NCBI GenBank assembly: GCA_964526065.1
Contig: CAZGID010000002.1
Location: forward strand, 1 to 41,861
Reading direction: 5' to 3'
From: an uncultured bacterium
GTDB lineage: Bacteria; Omnitrophota; Omnitrophia; Omnitrophales; Aquincolibacteriaceae
DNA: 41,861 nt
Notes under the pieces: model-generated
What the model was told of the DNA's origin: nothing
Database searches by the model: none
The model's input: only the letters and a program-made list of their open reading frames with translations
Shown: piece by piece, positions 8,576-35,291 of the stretch
How positions within the stretch are numbered: position 1 is the first letter of the stretch
Layout of the letters: each line of letters begins with the position of its first letter
Made by a program: the position numbers and the translations under genes

Positions 8576-8592
8576 AAAGTCATCGCTTCTGG

Positions 8593-9231: not shown

Positions 9232-9232
9232 T

Positions 9233-12086: not shown

Positions 12087-12116
12087 GAATAAACCGTCGT
12101 TCCTCTATGCATCTAC

Positions 12117-13322: not shown

Positions 13323-13324
13323 TG

Positions 13325-14086
13325 TTATAAAACTTTAAGACGAAACAGGGATTGTTTGTTTTCAGTCTGATAATCAATATCACTTACACTCAGCCCTGCA
13401 TTTCGGCACAAGGATGCGAAATATTCTTTTTCATATCGAACGACATGCAGCGACCCTCTATGCTGCTTATAAAGATAGTTTTCAGGATTGATTGAGACGT
13501 CGTCGACATTTTCTTCGACATAAGCTGTGAATCTCATTTCACCCTCATCCTTTAGTACGCGCCTGGATTCATGCAAGTACACCTGAACATCCCGTGGGAG
13601 CATATGAGAGAACACAGAGTAGGCATAGACCAGATCGAAAATATTATTATTAAAAGGAAACCTAAATAGTTCGTTTATTCGCTTTTCGCTCTGTGGGTTA
13701 TACCGTTCATTTCTGACATTGATGTGAGTAAACCGAAAATGCCTGTGCCTCGGCTCCAGATAATGCCTGCACCAGTTTATTGCGTTTCTATCCACGTCGA
13801 TCCCTTCATACTGTAATTCGCCGATGACTCGCAATATGCCAAGGGCCAGACGGCCATAGCTGCATCCAATATCCAGGACCTTCGAGTGGCAATTAATACC
13901 TAATTCCTCTTTTAATCGCTGCGCTTCTTTTTCTGCCGATGACACATAGTAGTGATCATTCTTATAGAGAGAGCTGCATCTCCGGACATGGGTTAGGGGC
14001 AAGGGATATCCTTCATAAAGAACGCACTCCAGTGGATCCTTCTTGCCAAATATTCTTATTATTTCCCTTAGGATTTTAGCGGCCAT
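13325..14086 (-). CDS. Class I SAM-dependent methyltransferase
   Basis: Motif I VLDIGCSYGRLALG. Post-motif FDLVYAYSVFSHM. First low-GC gene of the cluster. Confidence 0.8.
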   Translation of the reverse strand: MAAKILREIIRIFGKKDPLECVLYEGYPLPLTHVRRCSSLYKNDHYYVSSAEKEAQRLKEELGINCHSKVLDIGCSYGRLALGILRVIGELQYEGIDVDRNAINWCRHYLEPRHRHFRFTHINVRNERYNPQSEKRINELFRFPFNNNIFDLVYAYSVFSHMLPRDVQVYLHESRRVLKDEGEMRFTAYVEENVDDVSINPENYLYKQHRGSLHVVRYEKEYFASLCRNAGLSVSDIDYQTENKQSLFRLKVL

Positions 14087-14154
14087 TCACAGCTTCGCCC
14101 TCTCAGTCCCAGGCCGGGACCTCCGAGGGCATTCTCCTTGTTGCTCTTTTTGTA

Positions 14155-14718
14155 TTACAGCACTTCTACGCAATCCGCCGGCACCTGCACGGAGACGGAC
14201 TGCATTAAAAGATCCAGCGAGATCACCAGCCGGCACTGTTTGTCCCGCTGGACAACATAGCCTTCGGCCCCTTTAAAAGGGCCTGAACGAACATAGACAC
14301 GTGTTCCTTCTTTCAAATACGGAAAGGGATCGATCGAAATATTATGATTAAGAAAAGTGCGGATGGATTCTAGATCGCGTTCCGGCACAGCAACCGGCAT
14401 GAGCGGCGAGGGCCCCACAAATCGGACGGCTCCCGGGGTCTTCAAGACATCGACGCGGTCGGAAAATGGAATCCGGACAAAAAGATAGCCCTTAAAAAGC
14501 GGCTCGGTAATTTCTTTGCGGCGGTCGCTCCAGCGGCGCTGAAAGTGGCGCAACGGCAGAAAGCTTTCGATTCCCTTACGAGTCAGGAGTTCATGCAGTT
14601 TTTTTTCATGGCGGCTGCGCGCATAAAGCGCATACCATGAAAAGTTTGTTTCAGGGGGAAGAAAAGGTTTTAAAATCCCAGGACTCTGGGGTTGCAACGC
14701 TGGAACACATCCCGTCAT
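14155..14718 (-). CDS. NusG-paralog transcription antiterminator (UpxY/RfaH/LoaP-like)
   Basis: NGN domain WYALYARSRHEKKLHELLTRKGIESFLP...EPLFKGYLFVR. KOW region EGTRVYVRSGPFKGAEGYVV. Start placed at the ATG at 14718, preceded by GGAGG with a 5-nt spacer. The ORF-track start at 14769 is a GTG with no SD. Confidence 0.8.
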   Translation of the reverse strand: MTGCVPALQPQSPGILKPFLPPETNFSWYALYARSRHEKKLHELLTRKGIESFLPLRHFQRRWSDRRKEITEPLFKGYLFVRIPFSDRVDVLKTPGAVRFVGPSPLMPVAVPERDLESIRTFLNHNISIDPFPYLKEGTRVYVRSGPFKGAEGYVVQRDKQCRLVISLDLLMQSVSVQVPADCVEVL

Positions 14719-14789
14719 CGGAGCCTCCATGGCCGGGATATGCAAAGGCCATTTCCCGCCTGCCGTCACATCCCGGGAAAATGGATGGG

Positions 14790-20698: not shown

Positions 20699-22192
20699 TT
20701 AGCGTGAAAGCAATTCCGTCAGCAGCCGGACACCGACCCCCGTCGCCCCTTTGGCACAATCAAAGCGCCCGCTGTTAGACCAGGCTGTGCCGGCAATGTC
20801 CAGATGTGCCCAGGCGGTCTTTTCCGGAATGAATTCCTTGAGGAACATCGCCGCGGTGATCGTCCCGCCATACGGACCGCCGACATTCAGAAGATCCGAG
20901 TGATACCCCTTAATGAATTCGCGATAATCCTCCCAGATCGGCAGCTGCCAGCAGCGCTCTCCGGTCGCTTCACCCGCCTGGATGATTTTCTGAACCAGAT
21001 TTTCGTCGTTCCCCATTAAGCCGATGGCCTTGTCGGCAAAGGTGTAGAGGCACATCCCGGTCAATGTCGCCAGATCGATCAGCATTTTGGGTTTATACTT
21101 GGCGGAATAGGACAAGGCGTCCCCCAGAATCAGCCGGCCTTCGGCGTCCGTATTGATCACTTCCACGGTTTTCCCGTTGTACATCGTAATGATGTCGCCC
21201 GGACGCTGCGGATCCTCGGCCACAGAATTCTCGGCGGTCGGCACCAGACCGACCACATGCCGTTTCAGCCCCAAATCGGCCACCACGCCCAGCGTCCCAA
21301 TGACGGTCGCAGCTCCCGACATGTCGTATTTCATCTTTTCCATGTCCTTGGACGGCTTGATCGAGATGCCGCCCGTATCAAATGTAACCCCTTTACCCAC
21401 CAGGCAGACAGTCCCCTTCGACTGATACGCCTTGCCGTACTCCAGAATAATCAGCGCCGGGGGCACGGTGCTGCCCTGGCCCACAGCCAGGATGCCGTTC
21501 ATTTTCAATTTCTCCAGTTCGGCTTTTCCGAAGACTTCGCAGTGAATCTTCTTTTTTCGCGCCATCTCTCTGGCTTCTTTCGCCAGCTGCTGCGGGTGCA
21601 AAACATTGCCCGGTTCATTAATCAAGTCGCGGGCGCGGATGACTCCTTCGGCAATCGCCAGATGCGCGGCAATTTTTTTATCGAGAGAGGCCAGAGACCC
21701 CTTGCGGGCCAGAAACGCTTCAAAACGAATATCCGCCTTTTTTCCGTTCTCTCCCTGAGTCCGGTACCGGTCGAATTCATAAAGTGCCAGTTTCTCCATT
21801 TCAGCAAAGATGCCAGCCGCTTCGGCGAGCGTGACCTCACCCGAAACAAAGGTCTCCAGGGCAATCCGGACCGTTTTCGCTTTAATGGCGCGCGCCTTGC
21901 GCACGATTTCACTGGCGGCTTTCCGGAAGCACATTTTGCGGTAATCTTTCTTCGGCCCCATCCCGACGAGAAAAAATTCATGGGCCTGAGTGTAGTCCGG
22001 ATTGTAGGTCATTAACTGCTGGGCAGGTTTGCCGTCGAAGCGCCCTTTGCTGACGGCCTGCTGGCTGGCTTCATAAGCCGCCGGTTCCAGCGTGCGCAGT
22101 TCGCGCGCCGGTCCTTCTTTTTCAAAACAGGCGGCGACAAATAAATCGGCGCGGACTTTTTTCTCGGAAGAGGGAATCAAAACCAGACTCAT
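20699..22192 (-). CDS. pepA: Leucyl aminopeptidase (M17 family)
   Basis: VGKGVTFDTGGISIKP..., NTDAEGRLILGDAL, the diagnostic M17 active-site motifs. AAAGGAG lies 6 nt before the ATG. Confidence 0.92.
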   Translation of the reverse strand: MSLVLIPSSEKKVRADLFVAACFEKEGPARELRTLEPAAYEASQQAVSKGRFDGKPAQQLMTYNPDYTQAHEFFLVGMGPKKDYRKMCFRKAASEIVRKARAIKAKTVRIALETFVSGEVTLAEAAGIFAEMEKLALYEFDRYRTQGENGKKADIRFEAFLARKGSLASLDKKIAAHLAIAEGVIRARDLINEPGNVLHPQQLAKEAREMARKKKIHCEVFGKAELEKLKMNGILAVGQGSTVPPALIILEYGKAYQSKGTVCLVGKGVTFDTGGISIKPSKDMEKMKYDMSGAATVIGTLGVVADLGLKRHVVGLVPTAENSVAEDPQRPGDIITMYNGKTVEVINTDAEGRLILGDALSYSAKYKPKMLIDLATLTGMCLYTFADKAIGLMGNDENLVQKIIQAGEATGERCWQLPIWEDYREFIKGYHSDLLNVGGPYGGTITAAMFLKEFIPEKTAWAHLDIAGTAWSNSGRFDCAKGATGVGVRLLTELLSR

Positions 22193-22209
22193 GAGAGCTC
22201 CTTTCCGGC

Positions 22210-22235
22210 GGATTTTCGTTAAATCCGTACGGATT
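22210..22235. promoter_or_regulatory. Nested inverted repeats (operator-like) in the pepA upstream region
   Basis: GGATTTT-cgtt-AAATCC-GTAC-GGATT. It contains the perfect 14-nt palindrome AATCCGTACGGATT (22222-22235), about 30 nt upstream of the pepA ATG. Confidence 0.3.
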
Positions 22236-22317
22236 GTGCGCGGGCTATTGGGACCCGCGCCTTTTCTGATGATGGGTTAATGAGTGCAACAGCCTGTCAT
22301 TTTAGCGCAAAAGTGCT

Positions 22318-22346
22318 TTGAAGCAAATGGCGTGTCGACATAGAAT
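22318..22346 (+). promoter_or_regulatory. Candidate sigma70-type promoter giving a leaderless mRNA
   Basis: TTGAAG (22318-22323), exactly 17 nt, TAGAAT (22341-22346), 6 nt (GGGGGC), then the ATG at 22353. Confidence 0.45.
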
Positions 22347-22352
22347 GGGGGC

Positions 22353-22928
22353 ATGCGCCGCGAACCTCAAAAAGGCCTGCAGGCTATTCTCTGGTGGGTT
22401 GTCTGGATTTCCCTGACAATTCTTTCTTTTTTTGGAGCCGTCGCCATCTGGTCCCCCATCATCGCCCGCCATTTCGGCAGCGTTCGCGAAGGCCAGGCGG
22501 CGGTCTTCTGGGTGATCGCCGTTTTCGGCACCTGGATGATTTTTCTGGTGCCGCTGATCGTCTACATGTATTTCCGCGTCGATAAAGCCTATGACGACGC
22601 CCGTATTCGCCGGGAAAAGGCGGCGATGCGCTTTCGTTCCATTGAAGTTCCCTCAAACAAAAGAGCCTTGCGCCCGGAAGTTGCATCTCATCTGACCCCG
22701 CTTCCTGAAACCATTCAGGGTGGTCACGTTGTTGCCCTCCGGCTGACGGACGGCCGGGAAATTCCTTACGCCTTTATTGCGCAGCGGCGGGAAATTCTGG
22801 GGCTTTATAATCAGCGGGAGATGTCCTTTACCGGCGGCGATGTCGTCCAAGTCATTCCGTACCCGGAACTGCCTCCGCTTCTGGTCGCCGCCAACTGGCT
22901 GCGGCTCGACGGTGTCAGCCTGGATTAA
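22353..22928 (+). CDS. Membrane protein with an uncharacterised C-terminal domain (paralog A)
   Basis: Two N-terminal TM helices (...VFGTWMIFLVPLIVYMYFR) and a soluble tail GGHVVALRLTDGREIPYAFIAQRREILGLYNQ...WLRLDG, shared with the gene at 23534-24307. Confidence 0.7.
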   Translation: MRREPQKGLQAILWWVVWISLTILSFFGAVAIWSPIIARHFGSVREGQAAVFWVIAVFGTWMIFLVPLIVYMYFRVDKAYDDARIRREKAAMRFRSIEVPSNKRALRPEVASHLTPLPETIQGGHVVALRLTDGREIPYAFIAQRREILGLYNQREMSFTGGDVVQVIPYPELPPLLVAANWLRLDGVSLD

Positions 22929-23293
22929 GCCGCTGCTTCCGGATTTTCTTCGCGGGATTTCTGATTGCAAACGCTTTTCAGCGTGAGGGCGGGTGCTTTC
23001 TCGATGCCTTCCGTATAAGAGAACATCGGAATGGTATCCCAGGGGCAGTGTTTCGCGCAAAGTGCACAGCCAATACAGCGTTCGATATCGACTTCCACCA
23101 CCTGCTGGAACTGGGCAAAGTCGGCGCCCGGCACAATTTCAATGCAGTCGACGGGACAAAAAACGATACAGGCTTCACAGCCCGTGCAACCGTGCTGGTC
23201 GATGACAGCCAATAGCCGGGGCTCCCGTTTGCGTTCGGGTTTGGCAGCAATTTGGGGCGGCCGGGGGCCTTTTCTTGCCGTATTTTCCGTCAT
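22925..23293 (-). CDS. 2x[4Fe-4S] ferredoxin with a basic N-terminal extension
   Basis: CTGCEACIVFCP and CIGCALCAKHCP, two CxxCxxCxxxCP motifs. Confidence 0.85.
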   Translation of the reverse strand: MTENTARKGPRPPQIAAKPERKREPRLLAVIDQHGCTGCEACIVFCPVDCIEIVPGADFAQFQQVVEVDIERCIGCALCAKHCPWDTIPMFSYTEGIEKAPALTLKSVCNQKSREENPEAAA

Positions 23294-23354
23294 CGTAAAA
23301 TCCTTACTAAGAAGATGGTAACACAGGGCCTATCGGCCTTCAACGCCCGCGACT

Positions 23355-23537
23355 TTACCCTCGGGGACGCGCCAGGCGGCATACCAGCCAGCCAAAAGCA
23401 AAAACCAGAATGGAACCGGTAAACGCGGCAATCGCGGCGCCTTCATCCCGGTCAAATTCGGTAATCCACAAACTAACCGGCATCAGGATCAAACCGGCCA
23501 GCTGAAGCAGTCGCCCGGCCCGCCAAATCCACTTCAT
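23355..23537 (-). CDS. Small two-helix membrane protein
   Basis: 60 aa with two hydrophobic segments. The ATG overlaps the stop of the upstream gene by 4 nt (ATGA). Confidence 0.5.
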   Translation of the reverse strand: MKWIWRAGRLLQLAGLILMPVSLWITEFDRDEGAAIAAFTGSILVFAFGWLVCRLARPRG

Positions 23538-24307
23538 CCACGTCTCCCGTCAAGGCGCAGCCAGCGGGCTTCTTCATAAGGCGGCAGGCTCTCGGGCTTC
23601 AGAACTTCCACCCCTTCGATTTCTTCCATCGAAAAAGAAAGCGCTTCGGCATCATAAATGCCGAGAATTTCGCGCCGGTGCAGGATAAAGACATGCGGAA
23701 TCACGCTTCCATTCCGGAGCCTCAATGAAACTACATGGCCTTCCCCAACGGTGGGGGCAATCCCTTCCAACTGCAAACGGGCCAGCCCGGGCAGCTGACG
23801 GGAGGCCTTATCATAAAAACGGGCGCGGAACTGCGGACCCGGCGCCGCTTGCTCCTGGCGTGCATCGCGAAAAATTTGATCGGCCCGCCGGTACATCAAA
23901 ATCAGAAAGGGCAGAAGGACAACCAGCCAGGTGACCAGCACCGCCTTGACCCAGGGGCCATAAATACCGGATCCTCCCAGCTCCTCCCGGTACCGCCAGC
24001 TCCAAAAGAACAAACTGCCGATCAGCGCTCCGATAAAAATCATCATGGCCGTCTGCCACGCATCCACCGCTTTTTCCTGATGCGTATTCAGCCGCTTCCA
24101 GACGCGCTCTTTCTTGCGCATAAAGGGAATGACGAGGATAAACCAGGTGCCGAAAACCGAAATCGCCCAGGTGATTTCGCGCGCGCTTCCTTCGATCGGA
24201 CCCAGCGCCTTCTCGATCAAGACCGTCCAGCCTGCCGCGGCCAGCACGAAGGAGCCGGCAAACCAGCAAATCCATCCGAGCCAGAAACGAAATCCGAAGC
24301 GGTCCAT
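23534..24307 (-). CDS. Membrane protein with an uncharacterised C-terminal domain (paralog B, duplicated TM module)
   Basis: Four TM helices. The VFGTW-type module occurs twice (VFGTWFILVIPF; LVTWLVVLLPFLILMYRR). C-terminal EGHVVSLRLRNGSVIPHVFILHRREILGIYDA...WLRLDG. Confidence 0.7.
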   Translation of the reverse strand: MDRFGFRFWLGWICWFAGSFVLAAAGWTVLIEKALGPIEGSAREITWAISVFGTWFILVIPFMRKKERVWKRLNTHQEKAVDAWQTAMMIFIGALIGSLFFWSWRYREELGGSGIYGPWVKAVLVTWLVVLLPFLILMYRRADQIFRDARQEQAAPGPQFRARFYDKASRQLPGLARLQLEGIAPTVGEGHVVSLRLRNGSVIPHVFILHRREILGIYDAEALSFSMEEIEGVEVLKPESLPPYEEARWLRLDGRRG

Positions 24308-24310
24308 AAG

Positions 24311-24724
24311 CTACATCCGATAGAGCATCCAGTAAACGACGACGCCGGTGACCGAAACGTACAGCCAGAGAGGCAATGTTTTTTTTCCGATCCGGACATG
24401 CCGCACGAAGTCACCGCGCAAACCGCGCACCAGCGTCATCACCACCATAGGAAGGATCACGACAGCCAAAATGGTGTGGGAAAGAAGAATTGTAAAATAC
24501 ACCCAGCGGATCCAGCCTTCTCCGCCAAAGCGTGTGCTGCCATGGTGATAATGATAAGACAGGTAGGAGATCAAAAAAAGAACGGAGGTCATGCAGGCCG
24601 CCAGCATACTCATGGTGTGCGCCGTAATGGCCCGCTGCCGGATAAAGATATAACCCAGCACCAGTAAAAAAGCACTGGCGAGATTCAGACCCGCGTTCAC
24701 CGCCGGCCAATGAATCTCCGGCAT
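24311..24724 (-). CDS. DUF420 family membrane protein (CtaM-like)
   Basis: MPEIHWPAVNAGLNLASAFLLVLGY...SYLSYHYHHG...ILLSHTILAVV...LWLYVSVTGVVVYWMLY. Start at the ATG at 24724, sharing one base with the permease stop (TGATG). Confidence 0.8.
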   Translation of the reverse strand: MPEIHWPAVNAGLNLASAFLLVLGYIFIRQRAITAHTMSMLAACMTSVLFLISYLSYHYHHGSTRFGGEGWIRWVYFTILLSHTILAVVILPMVVMTLVRGLRGDFVRHVRIGKKTLPLWLYVSVTGVVVYWMLYRM

Positions 24725-25506
24725 CACGTTAATTGCTCCGGGCCGCGTTCCGCGGCAAAGCGTGCGGCCAGCAGCAACGAAATAACCGCGAGCCCCGCCG
24801 TCACGGCGCAGGAAAGGGCGGCATCCGGCAGCAAGGGAAAGGCTTCCGGTCCCGAAAGCACCTGCCGCAGCGCTCCCAGCCCGTAGGTTAATGGATTGAC
24901 CTGCATCAAAACGCGGATCCATACCGGCGCGCCTTCAAGGGGAAACAGCGCTCCCGAGAGAAACCACAGCGGCATCAGCAGCAGATTCATCACCGCATGA
25001 AATCCCTGAATGGAATTCATGCGCCACGCCAGCAAAAATCCGCCGGCCGTTAAAAAGAAGGCATTCAGAAAAAGAATTCCCGCCACCTGCAAAATGGCGG
25101 CTGGCGACAACGAAAAACCCGCAACCGGCGCAAGCGCCAGAAAAAAGAGCCCCTGCAGCCAGGCTAATCCCGCTCCGCCCAAAATTTTTCCAAGCGCCAG
25201 ACTCCAGGATGGTACCGGAGCGACCAGCACGGATTGCATAAATCCCTCCTGCCGGTCCTGAATCAGGGAAAAAGTGGAAAACACGGCCGTAAAAAGCAGG
25301 ATCAAATACAGGGTGCCGGGATAGAAATAAGCGAGGTAATTCGTATCCCCCGTTCCCGCCTGAAATGAGCTTCCGAATCCGGCACCGATAAAAAGCCAAA
25401 AAATAATCGGGGAACCGAGCGCGCCGGCGACACGGCTGGGCTGACGCCAGAAACGGATCATTTCGCGCTTCCACAGCATGGCGGCAGCTAAAAGAGCGGG
25501 CTTCAT
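24724..25506 (-). CDS. ABC-2 type transporter permease
   Basis: 260 aa and six hydrophobic helices. N-terminal WKREMIRFWRQPSRV is typical of ABC-2 permeases. 4-nt overlap with the ATPase gene. Confidence 0.8.
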   Translation of the reverse strand: MKPALLAAAMLWKREMIRFWRQPSRVAGALGSPIIFWLFIGAGFGSSFQAGTGDTNYLAYFYPGTLYLILLFTAVFSTFSLIQDRQEGFMQSVLVAPVPSWSLALGKILGGAGLAWLQGLFFLALAPVAGFSLSPAAILQVAGILFLNAFFLTAGGFLLAWRMNSIQGFHAVMNLLLMPLWFLSGALFPLEGAPVWIRVLMQVNPLTYGLGALRQVLSGPEAFPLLPDAALSCAVTAGLAVISLLLAARFAAERGPEQLT

Positions 25507-26420
25507 GCGATTTCCTGAAGGTGACGGCCGGTTTTATGCATAAACACATCGGCCAGCGTCGGCTTGCGAAAAATCACCGACTGAATGCGGCCGGGAAAAG
25601 CTTCCACCAGCCGGGTCAAAAAACGATGGCCCTCGGGATGCTCAATTTGCAAGGCATCGTCCGCAATCTGAACCGGTGTTTTAAATTCCGCCTCGATTTC
25701 TTTCGCCAGATCCGCCGGAACGGCCGTCCGGATTTCAAGCACATCACCGCCGATCTGGTTTTTTAATTCCTCCGGTGCTCCCAACGCGGCAACGGTTCCC
25801 TCCGCCATAATCGCAATGCGGTCCGCATACTCCGCTTCTTCCATTAAATGCGTCGCCATCAAAATGGTGAGCCCATCGCGTTTGCGCAATAACGCCAGGT
25901 GATGCCAGAGATCCAGACGCGCTCCCGGGTCCAGACTGCCGGAGGGTTCATCCAGAATCAAAAGCGCGGGACGATGCACCAGCGCCTTGGCAATCTCAAC
26001 CCGCCGCTTGAGCCCGCCCGAAAGTTTTTCGCTGCGCTCCTGCCACCGGTCTTCGAGCCCAAATCGTGCCGCCATCTCCCGGGCCCGAGATTTCAATGCC
26101 TCTCCCGCCAGCCCGTAAAGCTGCCCCTGGTAAAGCAGATTTTCTCCTACCGTCAATTTGGGATCCAGACTGGACGACTGGAAGACCACCCCGAGCCGGC
26201 GGCGGACTTCATGCACCGCTTCGGCCACATCGCAGGCGTCGATTCGAACCTTGCCCGCCGGAATTTGAAGTAAGGTTGAGAGAATCCGCAGCAGCGTGGT
26301 TTTTCCGCTGCCGTTCGGTCCGAGGAGGCCGAAAATTTCTCCCGCATGAACTTCCAGATTTAATTCTTGCAGCGCTTTGCGGCCGTCATAAGCGTAGGTG
26401 AGTTTCTGGATTGAAATCAT
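25503..26420 (-). CDS. ABC transporter ATP-binding protein (ABC-2 subfamily partner)
   Basis: Walker A GPNGSGKTT, signature LSGGLKRR, Walker B LLILDEP. Confidence 0.9.
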   Translation of the reverse strand: MISIQKLTYAYDGRKALQELNLEVHAGEIFGLLGPNGSGKTTLLRILSTLLQIPAGKVRIDACDVAEAVHEVRRRLGVVFQSSSLDPKLTVGENLLYQGQLYGLAGEALKSRAREMAARFGLEDRWQERSEKLSGGLKRRVEIAKALVHRPALLILDEPSGSLDPGARLDLWHHLALLRKRDGLTILMATHLMEEAEYADRIAIMAEGTVAALGAPEELKNQIGGDVLEIRTAVPADLAKEIEAEFKTPVQIADDALQIEHPEGHRFLTRLVEAFPGRIQSVIFRKPTLADVFMHKTGRHLQEIA

Positions 26421-26421
26421 G

Positions 26422-27321
26422 TCAGGCTTTGTCGACCAGCATCAGAATAAAAAGCAGCGAGAGATAAATAATGGAAGCGCGGAATAAAATTCTGGCGCCG
26501 CGTTCCATGCTGCGCACACATCCGGCGCTGACCGCCACCAAAAGGATCCCGAGCAGCAAAGCCCCGCTGAAATAAAAAACGCCCGTCAGGCCGATGAGAG
26601 TCGGCAGCAGGCTGACCGGAAGCAGCACTAAGGCATAAGTAACCGACTGTTTTGCCAGCTGCCCGCCTTCGGGATCGGAGACCGAAAGCACCTGCAATCC
26701 GGCCCTCGCATAATCCTGCCGGAAAATCCAGGCAATCGCGTAAAAATGCGGCATCTGCCAGAGAAAAAGGATCATAAAAATCACGGCCGCTCCGCTGTCC
26801 CAAATGGTGCCGCGCGCTGCGGCCCAGCCGATTAACGGCGGTAAAGCGCCCGGCAAGGCCCCGACCAGCGTGCACCAGGCCGTCTGCCGTTTGAGCGGTG
26901 TATAGAGGAACAAATAACTCAGCAGGGTCAGCGCTGCAATCAGGCTCGCCAGTGAATTAACGCTCATTTCCAGGATTCCAATTCCCAGTACCGCAAGCAC
27001 CAGGCCAAACCCCAGCGCCTCGGCGGGATCCACACGGCCGGAAGGAATCGGACGGCGATGCGTGCGGGTCATCAATGCATCGACATCACGCTCCATCCAT
27101 TGATTCAACACCATGGAGGCGGCCGCCACGAGCGAAGTGCCGCCCATCATCGCCCAGAAAACCGGCGCCGGCGAAAAATTTCCGGCCGCCAGAAAATACC
27201 CGATCATCGTGCTGAAAAGCACAAGAAAAACCAGCCGCGGCTTCATAAGTTCCCAGTAATCGAGAATCAGCGCCTGCGCCTGAGCAAAACGGTCGGTCTC
27301 GTGAAAATCCCGGTTCTTCAT
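26422..27321 (-). CDS. ctaB: Protoheme IX farnesyltransferase (heme O synthase)
   Basis: WELMKPRLVFLVLFSTMIGYFLA..., DALMTRTHRRPIPSGRV, the UbiA-family CtaB/CyoE motifs. Start at the ATG at 27321, in an ATGA overlap with the ctaA stop. Confidence 0.88.
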   Translation of the reverse strand: MKNRDFHETDRFAQAQALILDYWELMKPRLVFLVLFSTMIGYFLAAGNFSPAPVFWAMMGGTSLVAAASMVLNQWMERDVDALMTRTHRRPIPSGRVDPAEALGFGLVLAVLGIGILEMSVNSLASLIAALTLLSYLFLYTPLKRQTAWCTLVGALPGALPPLIGWAAARGTIWDSGAAVIFMILFLWQMPHFYAIAWIFRQDYARAGLQVLSVSDPEGGQLAKQSVTYALVLLPVSLLPTLIGLTGVFYFSGALLLGILLVAVSAGCVRSMERGARILFRASIIYLSLLFILMLVDKA

Positions 27322-28160
27322 TGATGCGCCCTTAACGTGATCAAGACCATTAACCCCAGAATGAGGGCGCCGCCGGTTTGATGGGCCACCGTAAACCAGA
27401 CTTCCGGTCCGGACGGCGCATACCCGGCTTCCAGCAAACGTGTCACAATAAAGGAACCGATTCCCAGAAAAAACTGAATCAGCACCAGAAAACCGATCAG
27501 CCGCGTCACCCAGGGAAGAAGAAAGTCGCGGCTGTACTGCCCTGAAACGCCTAGAAAAACCCGGAGAATGTGAAACAGAACCGCAAAAGCCATCAGCACA
27601 TGCAGACCGATGGCCCATCCATTGCCGGTATGCCGCACGGTGGCGCCCAGAATTAATTGGAGATAAAGAATAACGGCCGTCACCACCATCAGCTTTCGCA
27701 GACGCGGCGCCTGGGCAGGTGCTTCTTCAACGGGCGCATGCGGACGGGAAAGAAAATAAGCAAGGGCGATCAGCAGACAAAAAAAAGTTTGTCCCAGACA
27801 AGCATGGGCAATGGAAACCGCAGACGGCAGCATGAGGATAACCGTCAATCCTCCGAGAAGCGCCTGAATCACGACAGCCGCAAGACAGATCCACGCCAGA
27901 CGCCGGACAATGCCCTTTTCACGCCAGTGAACCCACAGTGTCAGAATCAGCGTCAGAATCCCGACGGTCCCCGCAATCATGCGATGCCCGTGTTCCCAGA
28001 AAATATTGCCGACCATGGGCGGAAAAAACTGACCGTAGGAAAGCGGCCAGTCGGGAACGGCGAGACCGGCTTCATGGCTTGTGACCAGACCTCCGGCCAA
28101 AATCAACAAGAAGGTGGCAGCGACCACCAGGCGGGCATAACGTGAAAGCCAAATATCCAT
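27318..28160 (-). CDS. ctaA: Heme A synthase (COX15/CtaA family)
   Basis: LILAGGLVTSHEAGLAVPDWPLSYGQFFPPM...WEHGHRMIAG and a second His-containing half, the eight-helix CtaA pattern. Confidence 0.85.
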   Translation of the reverse strand: MDIWLSRYARLVVAATFLLILAGGLVTSHEAGLAVPDWPLSYGQFFPPMVGNIFWEHGHRMIAGTVGILTLILTLWVHWREKGIVRRLAWICLAAVVIQALLGGLTVILMLPSAVSIAHACLGQTFFCLLIALAYFLSRPHAPVEEAPAQAPRLRKLMVVTAVILYLQLILGATVRHTGNGWAIGLHVLMAFAVLFHILRVFLGVSGQYSRDFLLPWVTRLIGFLVLIQFFLGIGSFIVTRLLEAGYAPSGPEVWFTVAHQTGGALILGLMVLITLRAHQ

Positions 28161-28236: not shown

Positions 28237-28938
28237 TCAGGCGGAAAAGGAAAAATCAACGGTCGAGGCAGCAGCCTCATCCACCGTGATTTCCTGAGTC
28301 TGGGTCCCGTACTTTTCGTGCCAGGCTTCCAGAACGTAGGTGCCTGCCGGCAAATCCTTGATTTCAAAAGTTCCCTGATCGCCCGTCACGCTGTAGAACG
28401 GATGCGTCAGGACCCCGGCATAAGCGTTCATCCAGGGATGGACGTCACATTTGAATTTGACCATGACTTCCGGCTCCTTGAACTGACGCTTTAACTTCAT
28501 GCCTTTGATCGGCATGCCCAGATTAAACTCTTTGGATTTTTCAGGCATCCCATGCACATTGTGAAGTGTGCTGTCGCTGTTCATGATTTCAAGCGGCTGG
28601 TCGACTTGAACGCCGAAGACATGGGGATGATACTGACAGCCTGACTGGTCCAGCTTGGCGGGTTCTTTAGGCGCGGGAAATGTCTGCCCCTCTAACCCTT
28701 CTTTGATATAAACAAAAACGTTCTGCAACGTTCCGTTTTCATTAACAACGACTTCTTCAGTATAAACCGGTCCGCTGTGCAAACTGGCGCACGTCGGATC
28801 AGCGTCCATATTAATGCGGGTCGGTTCGGGCGGTGTGCCGGAAAAGTTCACGGTTCCCGTGACGGTCGCCGCCAGGGCTGCATGACTGCCGGTCAAAAGT
28901 GCCAGCAGAGTTCCCAACATCCAGAAATGCTTCCTCAT
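28237..28938 (-). CDS. Secreted cupredoxin (type 1 copper) protein flanked by Ig-like/carboxypeptidase-regulatory-like segments
   Basis: Signal peptide MRKHFWMLGTLLALLTGSHAALA. Candidate Cu ligands are H in STLHNVH and C-x2-H-x2-M in KCDVHPWM. AAGGAGGAGG precedes the ATG. Confidence 0.7.
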   Translation of the reverse strand: MRKHFWMLGTLLALLTGSHAALAATVTGTVNFSGTPPEPTRINMDADPTCASLHSGPVYTEEVVVNENGTLQNVFVYIKEGLEGQTFPAPKEPAKLDQSGCQYHPHVFGVQVDQPLEIMNSDSTLHNVHGMPEKSKEFNLGMPIKGMKLKRQFKEPEVMVKFKCDVHPWMNAYAGVLTHPFYSVTGDQGTFEIKDLPAGTYVLEAWHEKYGTQTQEITVDEAAASTVDFSFSA

Positions 28939-28965
28939 TGTTTCCTCCTCCTTGAAGTCGCTGCC

Positions 28966-31794
28966 TCAGGAAGCCTGCGTTCCCGCAGCTGCCGGGGCCG
29001 GTTCCTGAATCCGTGCCGCCTCTTCGGGTGTGAAGACCATCATATAATCCCGGAGAGCACGGATCTGCTTGTGCATATCGCCGTCTAGTATATCACCAAC
29101 CGGGGACTGTCCGTCATAAAAGAATGTCGGCATCATCGTCCCTTCCTGGATCGCCTGCGGATCCTCGAGCCATGCCAGAATCCAGTCCGGACGAAGCCGC
29201 TCTTTTGCCATCACCAGATTCGGGGCCAGGAAAGAAGCCGATAAGCCCGCGGGCGGATTGGCCTGATGGCATTTGATGCACTGGAAGGTTTTGAAAAGCT
29301 CGCGGCCGGCCTCAATATATTCTGGTGTCGTCGGCGGAATTTCATTAGCCGTAAAGGCCGGGCCCAGCTCTGACAAGTGATTGAAATAAAGAATCAGCGT
29401 CGTGAGCTCGTGGTGATCGAAACCAAAAGTCGGCATCCGGATATTCAACCATGGCCGGATTGTGACGGGACTTTCCAGAAAGTGATAAAGCCAGGGTTCC
29501 TGCACCTTGCTGCCCTCACCCGGCAGAACCGGGGGTGCCATACCAGTATCTTCTTCATAAAGTGCCCGGACTCGTCCCTCAATACCATCCACCGTATGAC
29601 AACCCTGGCAGTTGAACTTTTTGACCAGAAAGCGTCCCGATTCGGTTTCCGCCTCCCGCTGGGTCAATACATCCTGCATTTCAAGCGGAACCTCGCCGTG
29701 CTGCAAGCTCAACAAAAATGTAACAAGCGCTCCGGCTTCTTCATCGGTAAATCCAAATTGCGGCATGCGCAATTTATCCAGATAGGGTTTTACCCTGCCT
29801 TCATCAAAACTGCGCGGATGTTTCAGTTTTTGAAAGAACCAGTCCTGACGGGTGCGGGGGATATCGATAAAACCAAAATCCAGTTTGGCCACTTCCTTGG
29901 AGCCTTCTTCCGTCAACTCGGTGCCAATCGGCTTCGCATCTTCAAATCCCTTGATGTCATGGCAGCCAAAACATCCCTGCCGCGCAATCATTTTACGGCC
30001 CAGATACTCGAGCCGCTCCTGGCGGCCCATTTTTTCCAGCTCGGCGGCGGCGTCTTCATGCCGCATTTGACCGGTCATGAAATTGAGCACCATTTCATTG
30101 ACGACTTCCGGCTTTATGACCGGCAGGCGCTGGCTCTCGAACTTTTCATTGTGATCCTGCAGCAGAAAACTGGCAATGTCGGCGGCCTCCTGATCATTCA
30201 GCCGCAGATTCGGCATCCGTGTTTCAGCATAATAGTGTTGCGGATTCTTGAGCCAGGTAAAAAGCCATTCCGGTGTCACTTTACTTCCCAGACCCGACAG
30301 GACCGGGCCGTGATCGTTCACGGCAGCGTCTCCAACGGTATGGCAGCCAAGACATCCGACAGATTCCACCAGCTGCCTCCCGCGTTCGGGGTCTCCCGCG
30401 GCCGGAAGCGTCTGCAAGGCGACGGGTTCGGAATATTTCATCAGATAAGCGGCGATACCGGCGATGGCCGCATTTTCCTTTTCAACATTCTGCGGATCAT
30501 CTGTATTTTCCAGATGAAAAATCCGCGGCATATTGGTCTCAGGACGGAATTCTTTCGGGTTATGCAGCCAGCGCACAATCCAGTCCTCGGTCAATTTGCT
30601 TTGGATATGCGTCAAACCGGGACCGGCTTTCCAAACCTCTTCAAAGCCTTCCACTTTATGACAGCCGAAACAGCCATTAACGCGCGCCAGCTCGCGGCCC
30701 TGATTCAACCGCGGCGCCTGCGGCACGTCGACGACCCCCTGATGGCACTTGGCGCAAGAAGCTTCAATATGCTGGCTCGGCAGCATCTTATCCGCCCAGA
30801 ATTCCATCGGATGCCAGCCGTATTTCTTTTTCCATTCCTCGGCTTCTTCCGCCGAAGACGGCGTATGCGCAGCGGTCACAAAACTCACGGAATGCCCGCT
30901 TCCGCCATGGCACGTCGTACAGCCGACGGTTTCCAGCGGATGCGGAGATTCGGATCCCAGATACAGATCAAGGTCGGGATGCGTCGTAAACGGCTGCGGC
31001 GCATCTTCAAACCCGGCCTGATCAATGCCGAGATGGCACGTTGTGCAGCGATCCACTTTTTGAACCCGCACGTAATAAAAATCGTCATAAATGTTTTCGA
31101 TGACGGCCTGCTGAATGCGCAAAGTCGGATTCATAAAATCCAGCATCGGGGCATTCAGGATTTCCTTGTCCCAGGAAAACGTATACTTATCCACCTTCTC
31201 TTCCAGCCGGGTGATTTCCTGCGTCAGCACCTTAAGATCGCGGTCCGCTTGCATCAGGTCGGTCATGAGTGCATCCAGCTGATTCTGCACCACTTCCTTT
31301 TCTTTTTCGATCCCTTCAACATCCCGTTGAGCCGTTTCGATTTCCTGCGCCCGAATTTCAAGACGCCGCTCAAAAGGTTCGGCCTTCTCTTCGTTTCCGT
31401 GATGCATGTGCTCTTCATAGTAATACCGGTCCGAATCCTGAAACTGTTTCAGATTCTGGTAATGGCTGTTGGCATTGGCATACGCCACATCAAGACGCGC
31501 CAGCTCCTTGCGCAAACCGGCCATTTCCTCACGCCGTTCCTCGAGGCTGATTTCGGCCGCCTGCATCTGCGCTTTCAAAGCATCAATTTTTTGCTGGTCG
31601 AGTTTCTTGCGGGCTTCTGTCAGCTCCAGTTCCGTTTTCTGACGGTTGTACGCCATAAACTTGCGCTGCCACATTTTCCATTCCCTCGAGCTGTCCTGAA
31701 AAACCATGGCAACCAGACCAATCAGAAGAAGAAGCGAGGCAACCAAAAACCAGAGGGTCGTTTTCCGTGTATTGTAAAGGCTTGGGGATGGCAT
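28966..31794 (-). CDS. Membrane-anchored octaheme c-type cytochrome with a long coiled-coil linker
   Basis: Eight CxxCH motifs: CTTCH twice, CAKCH, CFGCH twice, CLGCH, CQGCH, CIKCH. One N-terminal TM helix. Start placed at the ATG at 31794, 1 nt after the upstream stop, rather than at 31827. Confidence 0.88.
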   Translation of the reverse strand: MPSPSLYNTRKTTLWFLVASLLLLIGLVAMVFQDSSREWKMWQRKFMAYNRQKTELELTEARKKLDQQKIDALKAQMQAAEISLEERREEMAGLRKELARLDVAYANANSHYQNLKQFQDSDRYYYEEHMHHGNEEKAEPFERRLEIRAQEIETAQRDVEGIEKEKEVVQNQLDALMTDLMQADRDLKVLTQEITRLEEKVDKYTFSWDKEILNAPMLDFMNPTLRIQQAVIENIYDDFYYVRVQKVDRCTTCHLGIDQAGFEDAPQPFTTHPDLDLYLGSESPHPLETVGCTTCHGGSGHSVSFVTAAHTPSSAEEAEEWKKKYGWHPMEFWADKMLPSQHIEASCAKCHQGVVDVPQAPRLNQGRELARVNGCFGCHKVEGFEEVWKAGPGLTHIQSKLTEDWIVRWLHNPKEFRPETNMPRIFHLENTDDPQNVEKENAAIAGIAAYLMKYSEPVALQTLPAAGDPERGRQLVESVGCLGCHTVGDAAVNDHGPVLSGLGSKVTPEWLFTWLKNPQHYYAETRMPNLRLNDQEAADIASFLLQDHNEKFESQRLPVIKPEVVNEMVLNFMTGQMRHEDAAAELEKMGRQERLEYLGRKMIARQGCFGCHDIKGFEDAKPIGTELTEEGSKEVAKLDFGFIDIPRTRQDWFFQKLKHPRSFDEGRVKPYLDKLRMPQFGFTDEEAGALVTFLLSLQHGEVPLEMQDVLTQREAETESGRFLVKKFNCQGCHTVDGIEGRVRALYEEDTGMAPPVLPGEGSKVQEPWLYHFLESPVTIRPWLNIRMPTFGFDHHELTTLILYFNHLSELGPAFTANEIPPTTPEYIEAGRELFKTFQCIKCHQANPPAGLSASFLAPNLVMAKERLRPDWILAWLEDPQAIQEGTMMPTFFYDGQSPVGDILDGDMHKQIRALRDYMMVFTPEEAARIQEPAPAAAGTQAS

Positions 31795-31795
31795 A

Positions 31796-32878
31796 TCAGA
31801 TGTTGAAAAAGAACTCCGGAATAGCAACCAGATATTTGAGATTAAACGCCCAGCGCAGAATCATTTTGATCGGAAGCGACATCATGGCCAGAAAAAGAAA
31901 CATCAGGATGTGATACCGTGCCGCACCGAGCGTTTCATACATTTTTTTAAGCCGTGTTTTGGCCAGCAGCAAGGGCGGCACAATGAAATACAGCAAGACC
32001 AGAAGAATGCCGGGGGCCTCGCGGATGAACCATGCCTCCGGAAGTCCCCGGTTCAAGCCTTTGATAAAGATAAACTCGGACAGATTGACGTTGACCAGCG
32101 GCACGACTTTATGAAGATTCCAGGTTTCGAACGGACCGAAAAAGTTCCAGTTCGGGCCGCGCAAAAACGTGCCGACTCCGATCAGAAGAATCCAGAGAAT
32201 CCAGAAACCAAAAAGAAAAGCCGCAATGCCCCACCGGCGCGATTTGAAACAATAGTAACCGGAGGTTTTCGGGTCATTATCAATATAGGGAATGGCCGCC
32301 AGCCCGATAATAATCAGCGTGGGGAAAAACACACCCGCCAGCCAGGGATCAAAATAGACCAGCATTTCCTGCAGCCCTAAAAAGTACCAGGGCGCTTTGG
32401 AGGGGTTGGGAGAAATCGACGGATTGGCCGGCTCCTCCAGCGGCGCCTTCAAAAGCAATGACCAAACCACCAGCAGAACCGAACAAAAAAGTGCCACCAC
32501 AAACTCGATATAGATCAGGTAAGGAAAAACCATGACCTTTTCTTCCGCTTCAGCCTTTTCCACCGTCGGTTTGCCCGCCGCCAGCCGCCCGTCATTGATG
32601 ACAGCTTTGCGCATGGCATACCAGGTGAAATATCCGAAGATGAAAAGCATGCCCACAATCGGAACATTGTCGGGCTTGGTGACAATGGAGCGAAAGTGGT
32701 CGTCCGTCAAACCGATTCCGAAAAAGAGCACGGAAACAATCAAAGCCGGGACGGCAACCCACAGCGAGGTCATAACAGCGGGAAAAGCGATCAACAGGGC
32801 AAGCACCAGGATGGAACCGAAAAAGATACTGACCGGCGAAGAAGCCGCATTAACAAGCTCCTTGAAGACATCGATCAT
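31796..32878 (-). CDS. Cytochrome b C-terminal part (b6f subunit IV-like), extended with extra helices
   Basis: [19 protein letters not shown] corresponds to the PEWY Qo loop of subunit IV and the cytochrome b C-terminal domain. 360 aa with many TM helices. 4-nt overlap with the cytochrome b6-like gene. Confidence 0.85.
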
Positions 32879-33705: not shown

Positions 33706-33722
33706 AACTCCCTTTCTAAATC

Positions 33723-35221: not shown

Positions 35222-35249
35222 GCTTCAATTGAGAAATTGACAACATCGG

Positions 35250-35278
35250 AATCTAACACGTTTCAGACGCCGATTCAA
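35250..35278 (-). promoter_or_regulatory. Candidate internal promoter upstream of the HEAT/Rieske/cytochrome b genes
   Basis: Minus strand TTGAAT (35278-35273), 17 nt, TAGATT (35255-35250), in the 70-nt gap after ccsA. Confidence 0.3.
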
Positions 35279-35291
35279 CAAAAGTGATCGC

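What the first reader, a model, noticed from the sequence alone, without database searches (positions are those of the whole stretch)
22353..24307. Convergent paralogous membrane proteins with an unrecognised about 65-aa C-terminal domain bracket a ferredoxin and a mini membrane protein
Paralog A (191 aa, 2 TM, own leaderless-type promoter, plus strand) and paralog B (257 aa, 4 TM from an internal duplication of the VFGTW-helix module, minus strand) share a tail.
A: GGHVVALRLTDGREIPYAFIAQRREILGLYNQREMSFTGGDVVQVIPYPELPPLLVAANWLRLDG
B: EGHVVSLRLRNGSVIPHVFILHRREILGIYDAEALSFSMEEIEGVEVLKPESLPPYEEARWLRLDG
Identity is roughly 40% by eye, and it is even visible at DNA level (CGGCGGGAAATTCTGGGGCTTTATAAT against CGGCGCGAAATTCTCGGCATTTATGAT). 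I cannot assign the domain to a known family. B is embedded in the ctaA-ctaB-ABC-DUF420 operon and is ATGA-coupled to a 60-aa two-helix protein. A's 3' end overlaps the ferredoxin 3' end by 4 nt. This looks like an undescribed membrane module tied to heme A and oxidase assembly or redox sensing.
Basis: partly seen in the sequence, partly recalled or inferred. Interest (0 to 1): 0.7.

Follow-up and report, generated by a model that had tools for sequence, protein, structure and literature searches.

The report
Ferredoxin-linked membrane proteins in haem-A operon
Two related, previously undescribed membrane proteins of an uncultured Omnitrophota bacterium always travel with a tiny membrane protein and a highly conserved iron-sulfur ferredoxin inside haem A, copper and cytochrome c maturation operons, so they are a concrete candidate for how electrons reach haem A synthesis in bacteria.

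Summary
A (191 aa, 22353-22928 +) and B (257 aa, 23534-24307 -) are true paralogs (BLASTP E 6e-23). B's four helices arose by internal duplication of a Trp-rich two-helix hairpin (hhalign E 2e-13).

The shared ~85-aa tail models confidently (pLDDT 90) as a helix plus five-stranded small beta-barrel. By the positive-inside rule it is cytoplasmic. It has no match in Pfam, NCBIfam, PDB sequences, Foldseek-PDB or BFVD.

The family is rare: 66 clusters among 1.84 billion representatives. All named sources are Omnitrophota.

Across about 110 related loci the conserved core is family protein -> 60-aa two-helix protein -> PsaC/NuoI-like 2[4Fe-4S] ferredoxin.
- Ferredoxin lies within 2 kb of A in 54 of 58 loci.
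- It is the next recognised same-strand gene after the mini gene in 47 of 47 loci.
- DUF420/CtaM immediately precedes B in 25 of 26 loci.

The triad sits in ctaA-ctaB(-SCO1/DUF420) operons or, in one lineage, behind resB-ccsA.

Best reading (inferred, not shown): A/B plus the mini protein dock the ferredoxin at the membrane to feed electrons to haem-cofactor maturation, most likely haem A synthesis. "Redox sensing" has no support.

The parts
22318..22346 (+). sigma-70-like promoter (TTGAAG-17-TAGAAT) ending 6 nt before A's ATG; candidate leaderless promoter
   Evidence: A conserved TAnAAT box lies 6-10 nt upstream of the ATG in at least 12 orthologous loci.
22353..22928 (+). Paralog A: 191 aa, one Trp-rich TM hairpin, a conserved juxtamembrane helix and a cytoplasmic beta-barrel tail
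   Evidence: (AF2 pLDDT 91.5)
22386..22559 (+). A TM hairpin (residues ~12-69)
   Evidence: hydropathy and positive-inside analysis; AF2 helices 7-41 and 47-91
22668..22925 (+). A tail domain (residues ~106-191): helix plus 5 strands, ending in the WLRLDG motif
   Evidence: (pLDDT 90.1)
22925..23293 (-). 2[4Fe-4S] ferredoxin, PsaC/NuoI/FwdF-like, with conserved N- and C-terminal extensions
   Evidence: It is 73-89% identical across loci and conserved end to end.
23355..23537 (-). 60-aa two-TM 'mini' protein, ATGA-coupled to B
23534..24307 (-). Paralog B: 257 aa, two TM hairpin modules plus a cytoplasmic tail
24068..24307 (-). B hairpin module 1 (residues 1-80; ends in the FMRKKE..WKRLN linker)
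23828..24067 (-). B hairpin module 2 (residues 81-160)
   Evidence: hhalign E 2.3e-13 against module 1
23537..23794 (-). B tail domain (residues ~172-257)
24311..24724 (-). DUF420 (CtaM-like) gene. The ORF runs to 24922, but the probable start is the Met at 24724, giving 137 aa like homologs. A 3-nt gap separates it from B.
   Evidence: (DUF420 7e-41, residues 73-200 of the long ORF)
24724..25506 (-). ABC-2 type permease
   Evidence: (ABC2_membrane in ortholog)
25503..26420 (-). ABC transporter ATPase
26422..27321 (-). ctaB (haem O synthase, UbiA family); probable start at 27321, ATGA-coupled to ctaA
   Evidence: (UbiA in ortholog)
27318..28160 (-). ctaA (haem A synthase, COX15-CtaA family). 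No Cys pair is visible in the first extracytoplasmic loop.
   Evidence: (COX15-CtaA in ortholog); sequence read directly

Best explanation
A and B are two paralogs of an undescribed, apparently Omnitrophota-restricted family of inner-membrane proteins. Each has one (A) or two (B) Trp-rich two-helix hairpins, a basic juxtamembrane helix and a cytoplasmic ~85-aa helix-plus-five-strand beta-barrel that ends in WLRLDG.

Together with the 60-aa two-helix protein they most likely form the membrane dock for the dedicated PsaC/NuoI-like 2[4Fe-4S] ferredoxin. The ferredoxin would be held at the cytoplasmic face next to haem-handling membrane enzymes: CtaB/CtaA here, DUF420/CtaM for B, and CcsBA in one lineage. 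From there it can deliver electrons needed for haem-cofactor maturation, most likely the O2- and electron-requiring conversion of haem O to haem A. This would be the bacterial counterpart of the ferredoxin-Cox15 couple of mitochondria.

Shown here: paralogy, domain architecture, the fold model, family rarity, and the conserved gene triad with its operon contexts.

Inferred only: cytoplasmic location of the tail (positive-inside rule), a physical complex with the ferredoxin, and electron delivery to CtaA or to haem.
For: Homology and architecture.

Fold and topology:
- The tail model is confident (pLDDT 90-91).
- K+R counts place the N terminus, the inter-hairpin linker and the tail of A, B and mini on the cytoplasmic side, the same side as an Fe-S ferredoxin.

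Linkage to the ferredoxin and the mini protein:
- Ferredoxin lies within 2 kb downstream of the A-type gene in 54/58 loci, in both convergent (28) and co-directional (26) orientation.
- The next recognised same-strand gene after mini is the ferredoxin in 47/47 loci, with a gap of 100 nt or less in 38.
- The gene before mini is A or B in at least 37/46 loci, with ATGA overlap in 8, including the window.
- The pair survives relocation. In L030 the A-Fdx pair sits far from the cta cluster on the same contig: contig range 21361-35948 against 76001-96771 for L007.

Linkage to haem genes:
- About 30 loci read cytochrome c-CarboxypepD_reg-CtaA-CtaB-(SCO1)-A-mini-Fdx as one co-directional string.
- DUF420 precedes B in 25/26 loci.
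- In 6 loci the ferredoxin is co-directional with resB-ccsA, next to a 4-TM A-like protein.
- Haem, not copper, is the common denominator of all three arrangements.

Ferredoxin properties:
- It is conserved end to end, including both extensions, at 73-89% identity while its neighbours are about 50%.
- Its nearest solved relatives are complex-bound ferredoxins: FwdF, PsaC and NuoI/TYKY. This is typical of a tightly bound subunit.

Additional redox gene: in 21 loci a PNPOx/CREG-type split-barrel gene sits between the family gene and mini.

Literature:
- Mitochondrial ferredoxin (Yah1/FDX1) supports Cox15-dependent haem A synthesis (PMC12670532).
- Haem A synthase needs O2 and radical chemistry (PMC9145763).
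- CtaM/DUF420 is required for active haem-A oxidases (PMC4958251, PMC9145763).
- Some Omnitrophia respire with cytochrome c oxidase (PMC10066038).
Against: - No experiment or complex prediction links A, B or mini physically to the ferredoxin or to CtaA.
- A, B and mini carry no invariant Cys or His and no cofactor motif. They can only be scaffolds, not electron carriers.
- All loci come from one phylum, so part of the synteny could be inheritance rather than selection.
- In the window A is convergent with, not co-transcribed with, the ferredoxin.
- No COX1 or COX2 gene is present in the 41.9-kb window. The haem A consumer is therefore not seen here.
- 4 of 58 loci lack a nearby ferredoxin, and one B locus lacks DUF420.
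- The known ferredoxin of the Cox15 system is a [2Fe-2S] adrenodoxin type, not a 2[4Fe-4S] protein.
Confidence: 0.45

Rival explanations
1. Copper route. The triad and DUF420/CtaM (with SCO1 and the ABC-2 transporter) form a split, CcoG-like cupric reductase and copper-delivery module. The membrane-docked ferredoxin would reduce Cu2+ to Cu+ for export and insertion into the oxidase.
For: - B is glued to DUF420 in 25/26 loci.
- SCO1 lies directly upstream of A in 11 loci.
- A CPMC-motif single-TM protein follows B in 15 loci.
- A 2026 study proposes that CtaM exports, and possibly helps reduce, copper, and discusses the cupric reductase CcoG (PMC13344008).
- That CcoG carries two [4Fe-4S] clusters is my own background knowledge, not read from that paper here.
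Against: - Many arrangement-II loci have A directly after CtaB with no SCO1 or DUF420.
- The resB-ccsA arrangement has no copper gene next to the ferredoxin.
- A, B and mini have no conserved Cys, His or Met ligands.
- No FixG/CcoG-type domain was detected.
Confidence: 0.2
2. Pure assembly chaperones. A and B are membrane scaffolds or chaperones for oxidase or bc-type complex subunits (in the manner of Surf1 or CtaG). Their tail binds a nascent subunit, and the adjacent ferredoxin serves another purpose.
For: - They sit in cta operons beside known assembly factors.
- They have no cofactor motifs.
- The tail domain also exists as a stand-alone small protein in unrelated contexts (hhalign 99.7%). 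This suggests a generic protein-binding module.
Against: - The ferredoxin and mini genes are the most constant neighbours: 54/58 and 47/47 loci, across three rearranged locus types and both orientations. They are more constant than any assembly-factor gene.
Confidence: 0.2
3. Redox sensor or regulator. The membrane module senses respiratory or redox state and signals through the tail.
For: Only the respiratory neighbourhood.
Against: - No kinase, HTH, PAS, GGDEF, PilZ or other signalling domain appears in any of 76 members scanned.
- There are no conserved redox-active residues.
- Tight translational coupling inside a biosynthetic operon is atypical for regulators.
Confidence: 0.05

Closest known systems
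CtaM (DUF420) and other bacterial oxidase biogenesis factors (Sco, CtaG, Surf1)
   Same: They are small integral membrane proteins encoded in or beside cta operons. B is almost invariably the gene after DUF420. CtaM is required for active haem-A oxidases but not for haem A synthesis itself (PMC9145763, PMC4958251).
   Different: There is no sequence or profile similarity to any of them. A and B have a cytoplasmic beta-barrel and a linked ferredoxin, which none of these factors has. The function of A and B is untested.
Mitochondrial ferredoxin (Yah1/FDX1)-Cox15 haem A synthesis couple
   Same: A ferredoxin on the N side of the membrane is needed for haem O to haem A conversion (PMC12670532). 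Here a dedicated ferredoxin is encoded in the ctaA-ctaB operon. The window CtaA has no visible loop cysteine pair, as in the cysteine-less type 2 enzymes of bacteria and eukaryotes (PMC12808453; sequence read).
   Different: The mitochondrial protein is a soluble [2Fe-2S] adrenodoxin-type ferredoxin with no known membrane adaptors. Here it is a 2[4Fe-4S] PsaC/NuoI-like protein with two small membrane partners. The link is inferred from synteny only.
PsaC held on photosystem I by PsaD/PsaE (own knowledge: PsaE is an SH3-like five-strand barrel)
   Same: In both cases a PsaC-like 2[4Fe-4S] protein (PDB phmmer hits to PsaC at about 1e-9) would be clamped on the cytoplasmic membrane face by small subunits, one of which is a five-stranded small beta-barrel.
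   Different: This is an analogy only. Foldseek did not return PsaE among the best 50 matches listed. The membrane partners and the pathway are unrelated.
CcoG / NapH / NosR-type membrane-bound polyferredoxins
   Same: All have a membrane anchor plus two [4Fe-4S] clusters on the cytoplasmic side and serve maturation of respiratory metal centres. CcoG is discussed as a cupric reductase in PMC13344008.
   Different: Those are single polypeptides with their own TM helices and additional domains. Here the anchor and the clusters are on separate proteins, and no FixG/NapH-type domain is detected.
Sm/Hfq-like small beta-barrels
   Same: Both show an N-terminal helix followed by five strands. Hfq chains are the best-shaped Foldseek matches (TM 0.38-0.51).
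   Different: The matches are not significant (E > 1, probability 0.16 or less). There is no sequence relationship and no RNA-related context.

Membership tests
Any Pfam-A / NCBIfam family (A, B, mini, tail) | Profile HMM match above the curated cut-off | tested here: not met
   A scan of 76 family members found no recurrent family beyond weak TM noise.
Solved structures (PDB) | Sequence-profile or fold match at a significant E-value | tested here: not met
   hmmsearch of the tail and B profiles gave best E values of 0.3 and 0.5. Foldseek of the full-length and tail models gave best E values of 1.0 and 1.6. BFVD gave a best E of 0.29.
Sm/Hfq-like (LSM) fold | N-terminal helix plus five strongly bent antiparallel strands | tested here: inconclusive
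   The secondary-structure order matches: H3-9, then E19-26, E31-38, E42-47, E59-63, E77-79. Hfq matches reach TM of only 0.38-0.51 with E > 3.
Sm/Hfq-like (LSM) fold | Sm1/Sm2 sequence motifs and ring oligomerisation | not tested
   No oligomer prediction was available. No sequence similarity was detected.
CcoG/NapH/NosR membrane polyferredoxins | TM helices and two CxxCxxCxxxCP motifs in one polypeptide | tested here: not met
   Both Cys motifs are in the separate 122-aa ferredoxin (CTGCEACIVFCP and CIGCALCAKHCP). A, B and mini have no conserved Cys.
CtaM / DUF420 | DUF420 profile match, four TM helices | tested here: not met
   DUF420 matches the upstream neighbour (7e-41), not A or B. B is its conserved neighbour.
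PilZ, NfeD-C or other TM-tethered beta-barrel domains | Pfam PilZ or NfeD profile match | tested here: not met
   No such hit at E <= 1 in the window proteins. Neither appears among the recurrent families listed for the 76 members scanned.
Polymorphic-toxin immunity proteins (stand-alone relatives of the tail) | Small gene immediately downstream of a toxin (e.g. RHS/YD) C-terminal cassette | tested here: inconclusive
   One stand-alone homolog (P0302) directly follows an orphan YD-shell fragment (L034). Three other contexts show no toxin. A and B themselves are never in such a context.
New family defined here (hairpin + WLRLDG tail) | Trp-rich TM hairpin(s) (W..W...F...W...VFG.W....P) plus a C-terminal barrel with GH.V, E.LG.Y and WLRLDG | tested here: met
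   Both A and B carry all the motifs. 174 and 173 homologs were found at E <= 1e-3.

The most novel reading that the evidence does not exclude
The family protein, the mini protein and the ferredoxin form a dedicated membrane-docked ferredoxin complex that reduces haem, or haem-bound enzymes, at the cytoplasmic face. It would be the long-missing bacterial electron donor for haem A synthase (and possibly for haem O synthase and CcsBA, which need ferrous haem). It would be built from a protein family and a small beta-barrel domain with no described relatives.
Probability: 0.3. Interest if true: 0.8.

Novelty: new variant of a known kind. Interest (0 to 1): 0.6.

Why it matters
No ferredoxin or other protein that feeds electrons to bacterial haem A synthase (CtaA) is named in the review of bacterial oxidase assembly factors I searched (PMC9145763). 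To my knowledge that donor is still unidentified. Only in mitochondria is a ferredoxin implicated.

This locus gives a concrete, testable candidate: a dedicated, extremely conserved 2[4Fe-4S] ferredoxin hard-wired into ctaA-ctaB operons together with two small membrane partners.

It also defines an unannotated protein family and a new small beta-barrel domain. It adds a conserved partner for DUF420/CtaM, whose role in oxidase maturation is still debated. Finally, it improves annotation of the respiratory gene clusters of Omnitrophota, a widespread phylum with no isolated representative.

Tried and rejected
- **Known-domain assignment of the tail.** Pfam, NCBIfam, PADLOC, PHROGs, PDB sequence profiles, Foldseek-PDB (full-length and tail-only models) and BFVD all gave nothing significant.
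- **Two long hits of the tail profile.** P0273 and P0282 have 9 matched stretches each but turned out to be cadherin/Big_9 repeat proteins. I treated them as repeat artefacts.
- **Direct BLASTP of B's two halves.** It failed. Profile comparison was needed.
- **Look-up of the window's own B protein** in the assembly index found nothing.
- **Stand-alone homologs of the tail.** They are true homologs (hhalign 99.7%), but their contexts are heterogeneous: one RHS-cassette position, the others unrelated. They did not inform function.
- **An 'immunity protein' reading for A and B** was rejected, because A and B never sit near toxin genes.
- **The 63-aa ORF next to the ferredoxin in L032** is not homologous to the mini protein.
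- **COX1/COX2.** I looked for these genes in the window and found none.
Full report
**1. The observation**

- A: 22353..22928, + strand, 191 aa.
- A 122-aa ferredoxin: 22925..23293, - strand.
- A 60-aa ORF ('mini'): 23355..23537, - strand.
- B: 23534..24307, - strand, 257 aa.

BLASTP of A against B gives 39% identity over 137 residues (E 6e-23). That alignment covers the last transmembrane helix, the juxtamembrane helix and the whole tail. A second hit (E 2e-9) aligns A's N-terminal hairpin with B's first hairpin.

The sequence confirms two junctions. The B stop and mini start overlap as ATGA (23534-23537). The stop codons of A and the ferredoxin overlap within TTAA (22925-22928).

The claim that B arose by internal duplication is not visible by BLASTP of the two halves of the window protein (E 1.4). 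It is clear at profile level. Modules 1-80 and 81-160 of 34 B orthologs align with 98% probability, E 2.3e-13, over 69 columns.

The only sigma-70-like site in 22150-24400 is TTGAAG-17-TAGAAT, ending 6 nt before A's ATG. This is not more than chance on its own. However, a TAnAAT box 6-10 nt upstream of the start codon, with no Shine-Dalgarno sequence, recurs in at least 12 orthologous loci. A leaderless or near-leaderless message is therefore plausible.

**2. The proteins**

Hydropathy and the positive-inside rule place the N termini, the K/R-rich linkers and the tails of A, B and mini in the cytoplasm. A has two TM helices, B has four and mini has two.

AlphaFold2 on a 76-sequence alignment gives a confident model of A (pLDDT 91.5). 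It shows two long helices (7-41 and 47-91) followed by a compact beta domain. The tail alone models at pLDDT 90.1 as a short helix plus five strands.

Family alignments show many invariant Trp, Phe, Gly and Pro residues in the hairpins. In A there is an almost invariant KVDKAYEDARIRRE helix, and in B an FMRKKEQIWKRLN linker. In the tail the motifs GH.V, E.LG.Y and the C-terminal WLRLDG are conserved. There is no invariant Cys or His.

**3. No known family**

Nothing significant was found for A, B, mini or the tail in any of these searches:
- Pfam, NCBIfam, PADLOC and PHROGs.
- PDB sequence profiles (best E 0.3).
- Foldseek against PDB with the full-length model (best E 1.0) or the tail model (best E 1.6).
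- BFVD (best E 0.29).

The best-shaped matches are Hfq/Sm-like barrels (TM 0.38-0.51). The fold class is therefore a small Sm/SH3-like beta-barrel, without evidence of homology.

**4. Distribution**

B has 174 and A has 173 homologs at E <= 1e-3 among 5.8 billion clustered proteins. All are 40-60% identical to the window proteins. Every named source is an Omnitrophota MAG. A third architecture (~275 aa) is an A-like protein with an extra B-like first hairpin.

A tail-only profile searched against 1.84 billion representatives found only 66 clusters. These include stand-alone 70-100-aa proteins that are true homologs of the tail (hhalign 99.7%, E 2.8e-26). They carry no annotation. Their contexts are heterogeneous: one lies directly after an orphan RHS/YD cassette, the others are unrelated. 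Two long hits were cadherin-repeat artefacts.

A scan of one genome per GTDB species found B in 26 loci. All are labelled Omnitrophota or carry generic 'uncultured' labels.

**5. Gene neighbourhood, the decisive evidence**

I mapped window proteins by tblastn onto 29 B-anchored loci and 80 A-anchored metagenome loci. Three arrangements recur.

- **(I) The window type:** ctaA-ctaB-ABC-ABC-(SCO1)-DUF420-B-...-mini-Fdx on one strand. A is convergent on the ferredoxin and divergent from pepA.
- **(II) About 30 loci:** multihaem cytochrome c - CarboxypepD_reg-like - CtaA - CtaB - (SCO1) - A - mini - Fdx, all co-directional. Usually there is no B or DUF420.
- **(III) Six loci:** resB-ccsA-Fdx, convergent on the 4-TM A-like protein.

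The counts are as follows.
- Ferredoxin lies within 2 kb downstream of the A-type gene in 54 of 58 loci with enough sequence (28 convergent, 26 co-directional).
- The next recognised same-strand gene after mini is the ferredoxin in 47 of 47 loci, with a gap of 100 nt or less in 38.
- The gene before mini is A or B in at least 37 of 46 loci, with an ATGA overlap in 8.
- DUF420 is immediately upstream of B in 25 of 26 loci. The exception follows tatC.
- 33 of 42 loci of at least 6 kb carry at least one of ctaA, ctaB, SCO1, DUF420, resB or ccsA.

The A-Fdx pair also persists when it is separated from the cta cluster on the same contig (L030 against L007).

The conserved core is therefore family protein -> mini -> ferredoxin. 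It is attached to haem-handling genes.

Optional inserts occur in other loci and are absent from the window:
- a PNPOx/CREG-type split-barrel gene between the family gene and mini (21 loci; Pfam E 1e-13 to 1e-16);
- a CPMC-motif single-TM protein (15 loci);
- a DegT-type aminotransferase between mini and the ferredoxin (9 loci).

**6. The ferredoxin**

It carries two CxxCxxCxxxCP motifs. It is 73-89% identical across loci whose other proteins are about 50% identical. It is conserved end to end, including a basic N-terminal and a C-terminal extension.

Its nearest solved relatives are complex-bound ferredoxins: FwdF polyferredoxin, PsaC and NuoI/TYKY. This pattern fits a subunit with extensive, fixed protein contacts.

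**7. Window context**

Upstream of ctaA on the same strand lie:
- a CarboxypepD_reg-like protein;
- a 953-aa multihaem cytochrome c with a FixO-like segment;
- a 360-aa ORF without Pfam match;
- cytochrome b;
- a Rieske protein;
- a HEAT-repeat protein;
- ccsA and resB.

The cta part is translationally coupled almost throughout. There are ATGA overlaps at ctaA/ctaB, at ABC ATPase/permease and at B/mini. Only 1-3 nt separate the other junctions.

No COX1 or COX2 gene lies in the window. The left third of the window is a polysaccharide-synthesis cluster.

**8. Mechanism**

What is established:
- a new two-paralog membrane family with a cytoplasmic small barrel;
- a conserved triad with a mini membrane protein and a dedicated 2[4Fe-4S] ferredoxin;
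- embedding of that triad in haem A, copper and cytochrome c maturation operons.

What I infer: A/B and mini are scaffolds, since they have no cofactor ligands. They would dock the ferredoxin on the cytoplasmic face beside CtaB/CtaA (and DUF420, or CcsBA) to supply electrons.

The literature gives the rationale.
- Haem A synthase needs O2 and radical chemistry (PMC9145763).
- In mitochondria a ferredoxin (Yah1/FDX1) supports Cox15 (PMC12670532).
- No ferredoxin or other electron donor for the bacterial enzyme is named in the bacterial oxidase-assembly review I searched (PMC9145763).
- CtaM/DUF420 is needed for active haem-A oxidases, with a still-debated role (PMC4958251, PMC9145763, PMC13344008).
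- Some Omnitrophia respire with cytochrome c oxidase (PMC10066038).

From my own knowledge, haem O synthase and cytochrome c haem ligation use ferrous haem. This would unify arrangements I to III under a 'haem reduction' role.

Haem, rather than copper, is the common denominator of all three arrangements. For that reason I rank the CcoG-like copper-reductase reading second. A pure chaperone role and a sensor role rank lower.

**9. Novelty and verdict**

The family, the tail domain and the triad are not described in any library or paper I could search. The process they attach to, respiratory cofactor maturation with a ferredoxin, is a known kind. I therefore rate this a new variant of a known kind.

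The 'haem A / oxidase assembly' interpretation is supported by conserved synteny and refined to a ferredoxin-centred triad. 'Redox sensing' is unsupported. Function remains inferred. The decisive tests are complex prediction or pull-down, and haem A reconstitution in E. coli.

Noticed in passing
window 28240-38809 (- strand): A large respiratory supercluster lies upstream of ctaA. It contains resB, ccsA, a HEAT-repeat protein, Rieske, cytochrome b, a 360-aa ORF without Pfam match, a 953-aa multihaem cytochrome c with a FixO-like segment, and a CarboxypepD_reg-like protein. The cytochrome c-CarboxypepD_reg-ctaA-ctaB string is conserved in about 20 related loci.
   Followed up: partly
window 31799-32878 (-): A 360-aa ORF between cytochrome b and the multihaem cytochrome c has no Pfam match. 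A 359-aa gene occupies the same position in L031.
   Followed up: no
window 24311-24922 (-): The mechanical DUF420 ORF (203 aa) is about 65 residues longer than its homologs (139-140 aa) and overlaps the ABC permease gene. The likely start is the Met at 24724, which overlaps the permease stop by 1 nt.
   Followed up: partly
window 22925-23293 (-) and orthologs: The ferredoxin is far more conserved (73-89% identity, including both terminal extensions) than every neighbouring protein (about 45-60%). This suggests many fixed protein contacts.
   Followed up: yes
L026 10774-11518; L006 9455-10292; 21 and 15 loci respectively: Related loci carry two extra genes between the family gene and mini. One is a PNPOx/CREG-type split-barrel protein, ATGA-coupled to mini in L026. 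The other is a small single-TM protein with a conserved CPMC motif. Both are absent from the window.
   Followed up: partly
L001 9063-10166 and 8 other loci: A DegT/DnrJ-type aminotransferase gene is inserted between mini and the ferredoxin in nine loci. Its relation to the module is unexplained.
   Followed up: no
L034 3379-6420: A stand-alone homolog of the tail domain (P0302, 73 aa) lies immediately after an orphan RHS/YD-shell fragment. This is the classic position of a polymorphic-toxin immunity gene. The other stand-alone homologs checked are in unrelated contexts.
   Followed up: partly
L002/L003 8974-15872: In loci without ctaA/ctaB nearby, DUF420-B is followed by a complete Fe-S assembly cluster (iscA-like, Rrf2, sufB/C/D, sufS, nifU, nfu) and preceded by complex I genes.
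   Followed up: no
window 20699-22192 (-) and about 13 loci: An M17 leucyl aminopeptidase (pepA) gene is the conserved divergent neighbour of A whenever A is not inside the cta operon. No functional reason is apparent.
   Followed up: no
L001 11495-16792: A giant ORF (3756 aa called, cut by the locus end) combines protein kinase and SecA domains, right next to the A gene in that Omnitrophota contig.
   Followed up: no
window 287-14769 (-): A long polysaccharide-biosynthesis cluster includes several GT2/GT4 glycosyltransferases, methyltransferases, a sulfotransferase, a pyruvyl transferase and an ABC exporter. It is headed by a NusG-like paralog at 14158-14769.
   Followed up: no
L004, L005, L008, L009, L015, L019, L022, L025: Several GTDB-representative MAGs carrying the B/DUF420 pair are titled 'uncultured Planctomycetia bacterium'. 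All specifically named homolog sources are Omnitrophota, so these look like loose taxonomic labels.
   Followed up: no
window 38834-39602 (-): A 118-aa ORF matches only the C-terminal half of TauE/SafE, so it may be a truncated gene. Next to it is an RNase H/RVT_3-like 137-aa ORF.
   Followed up: no
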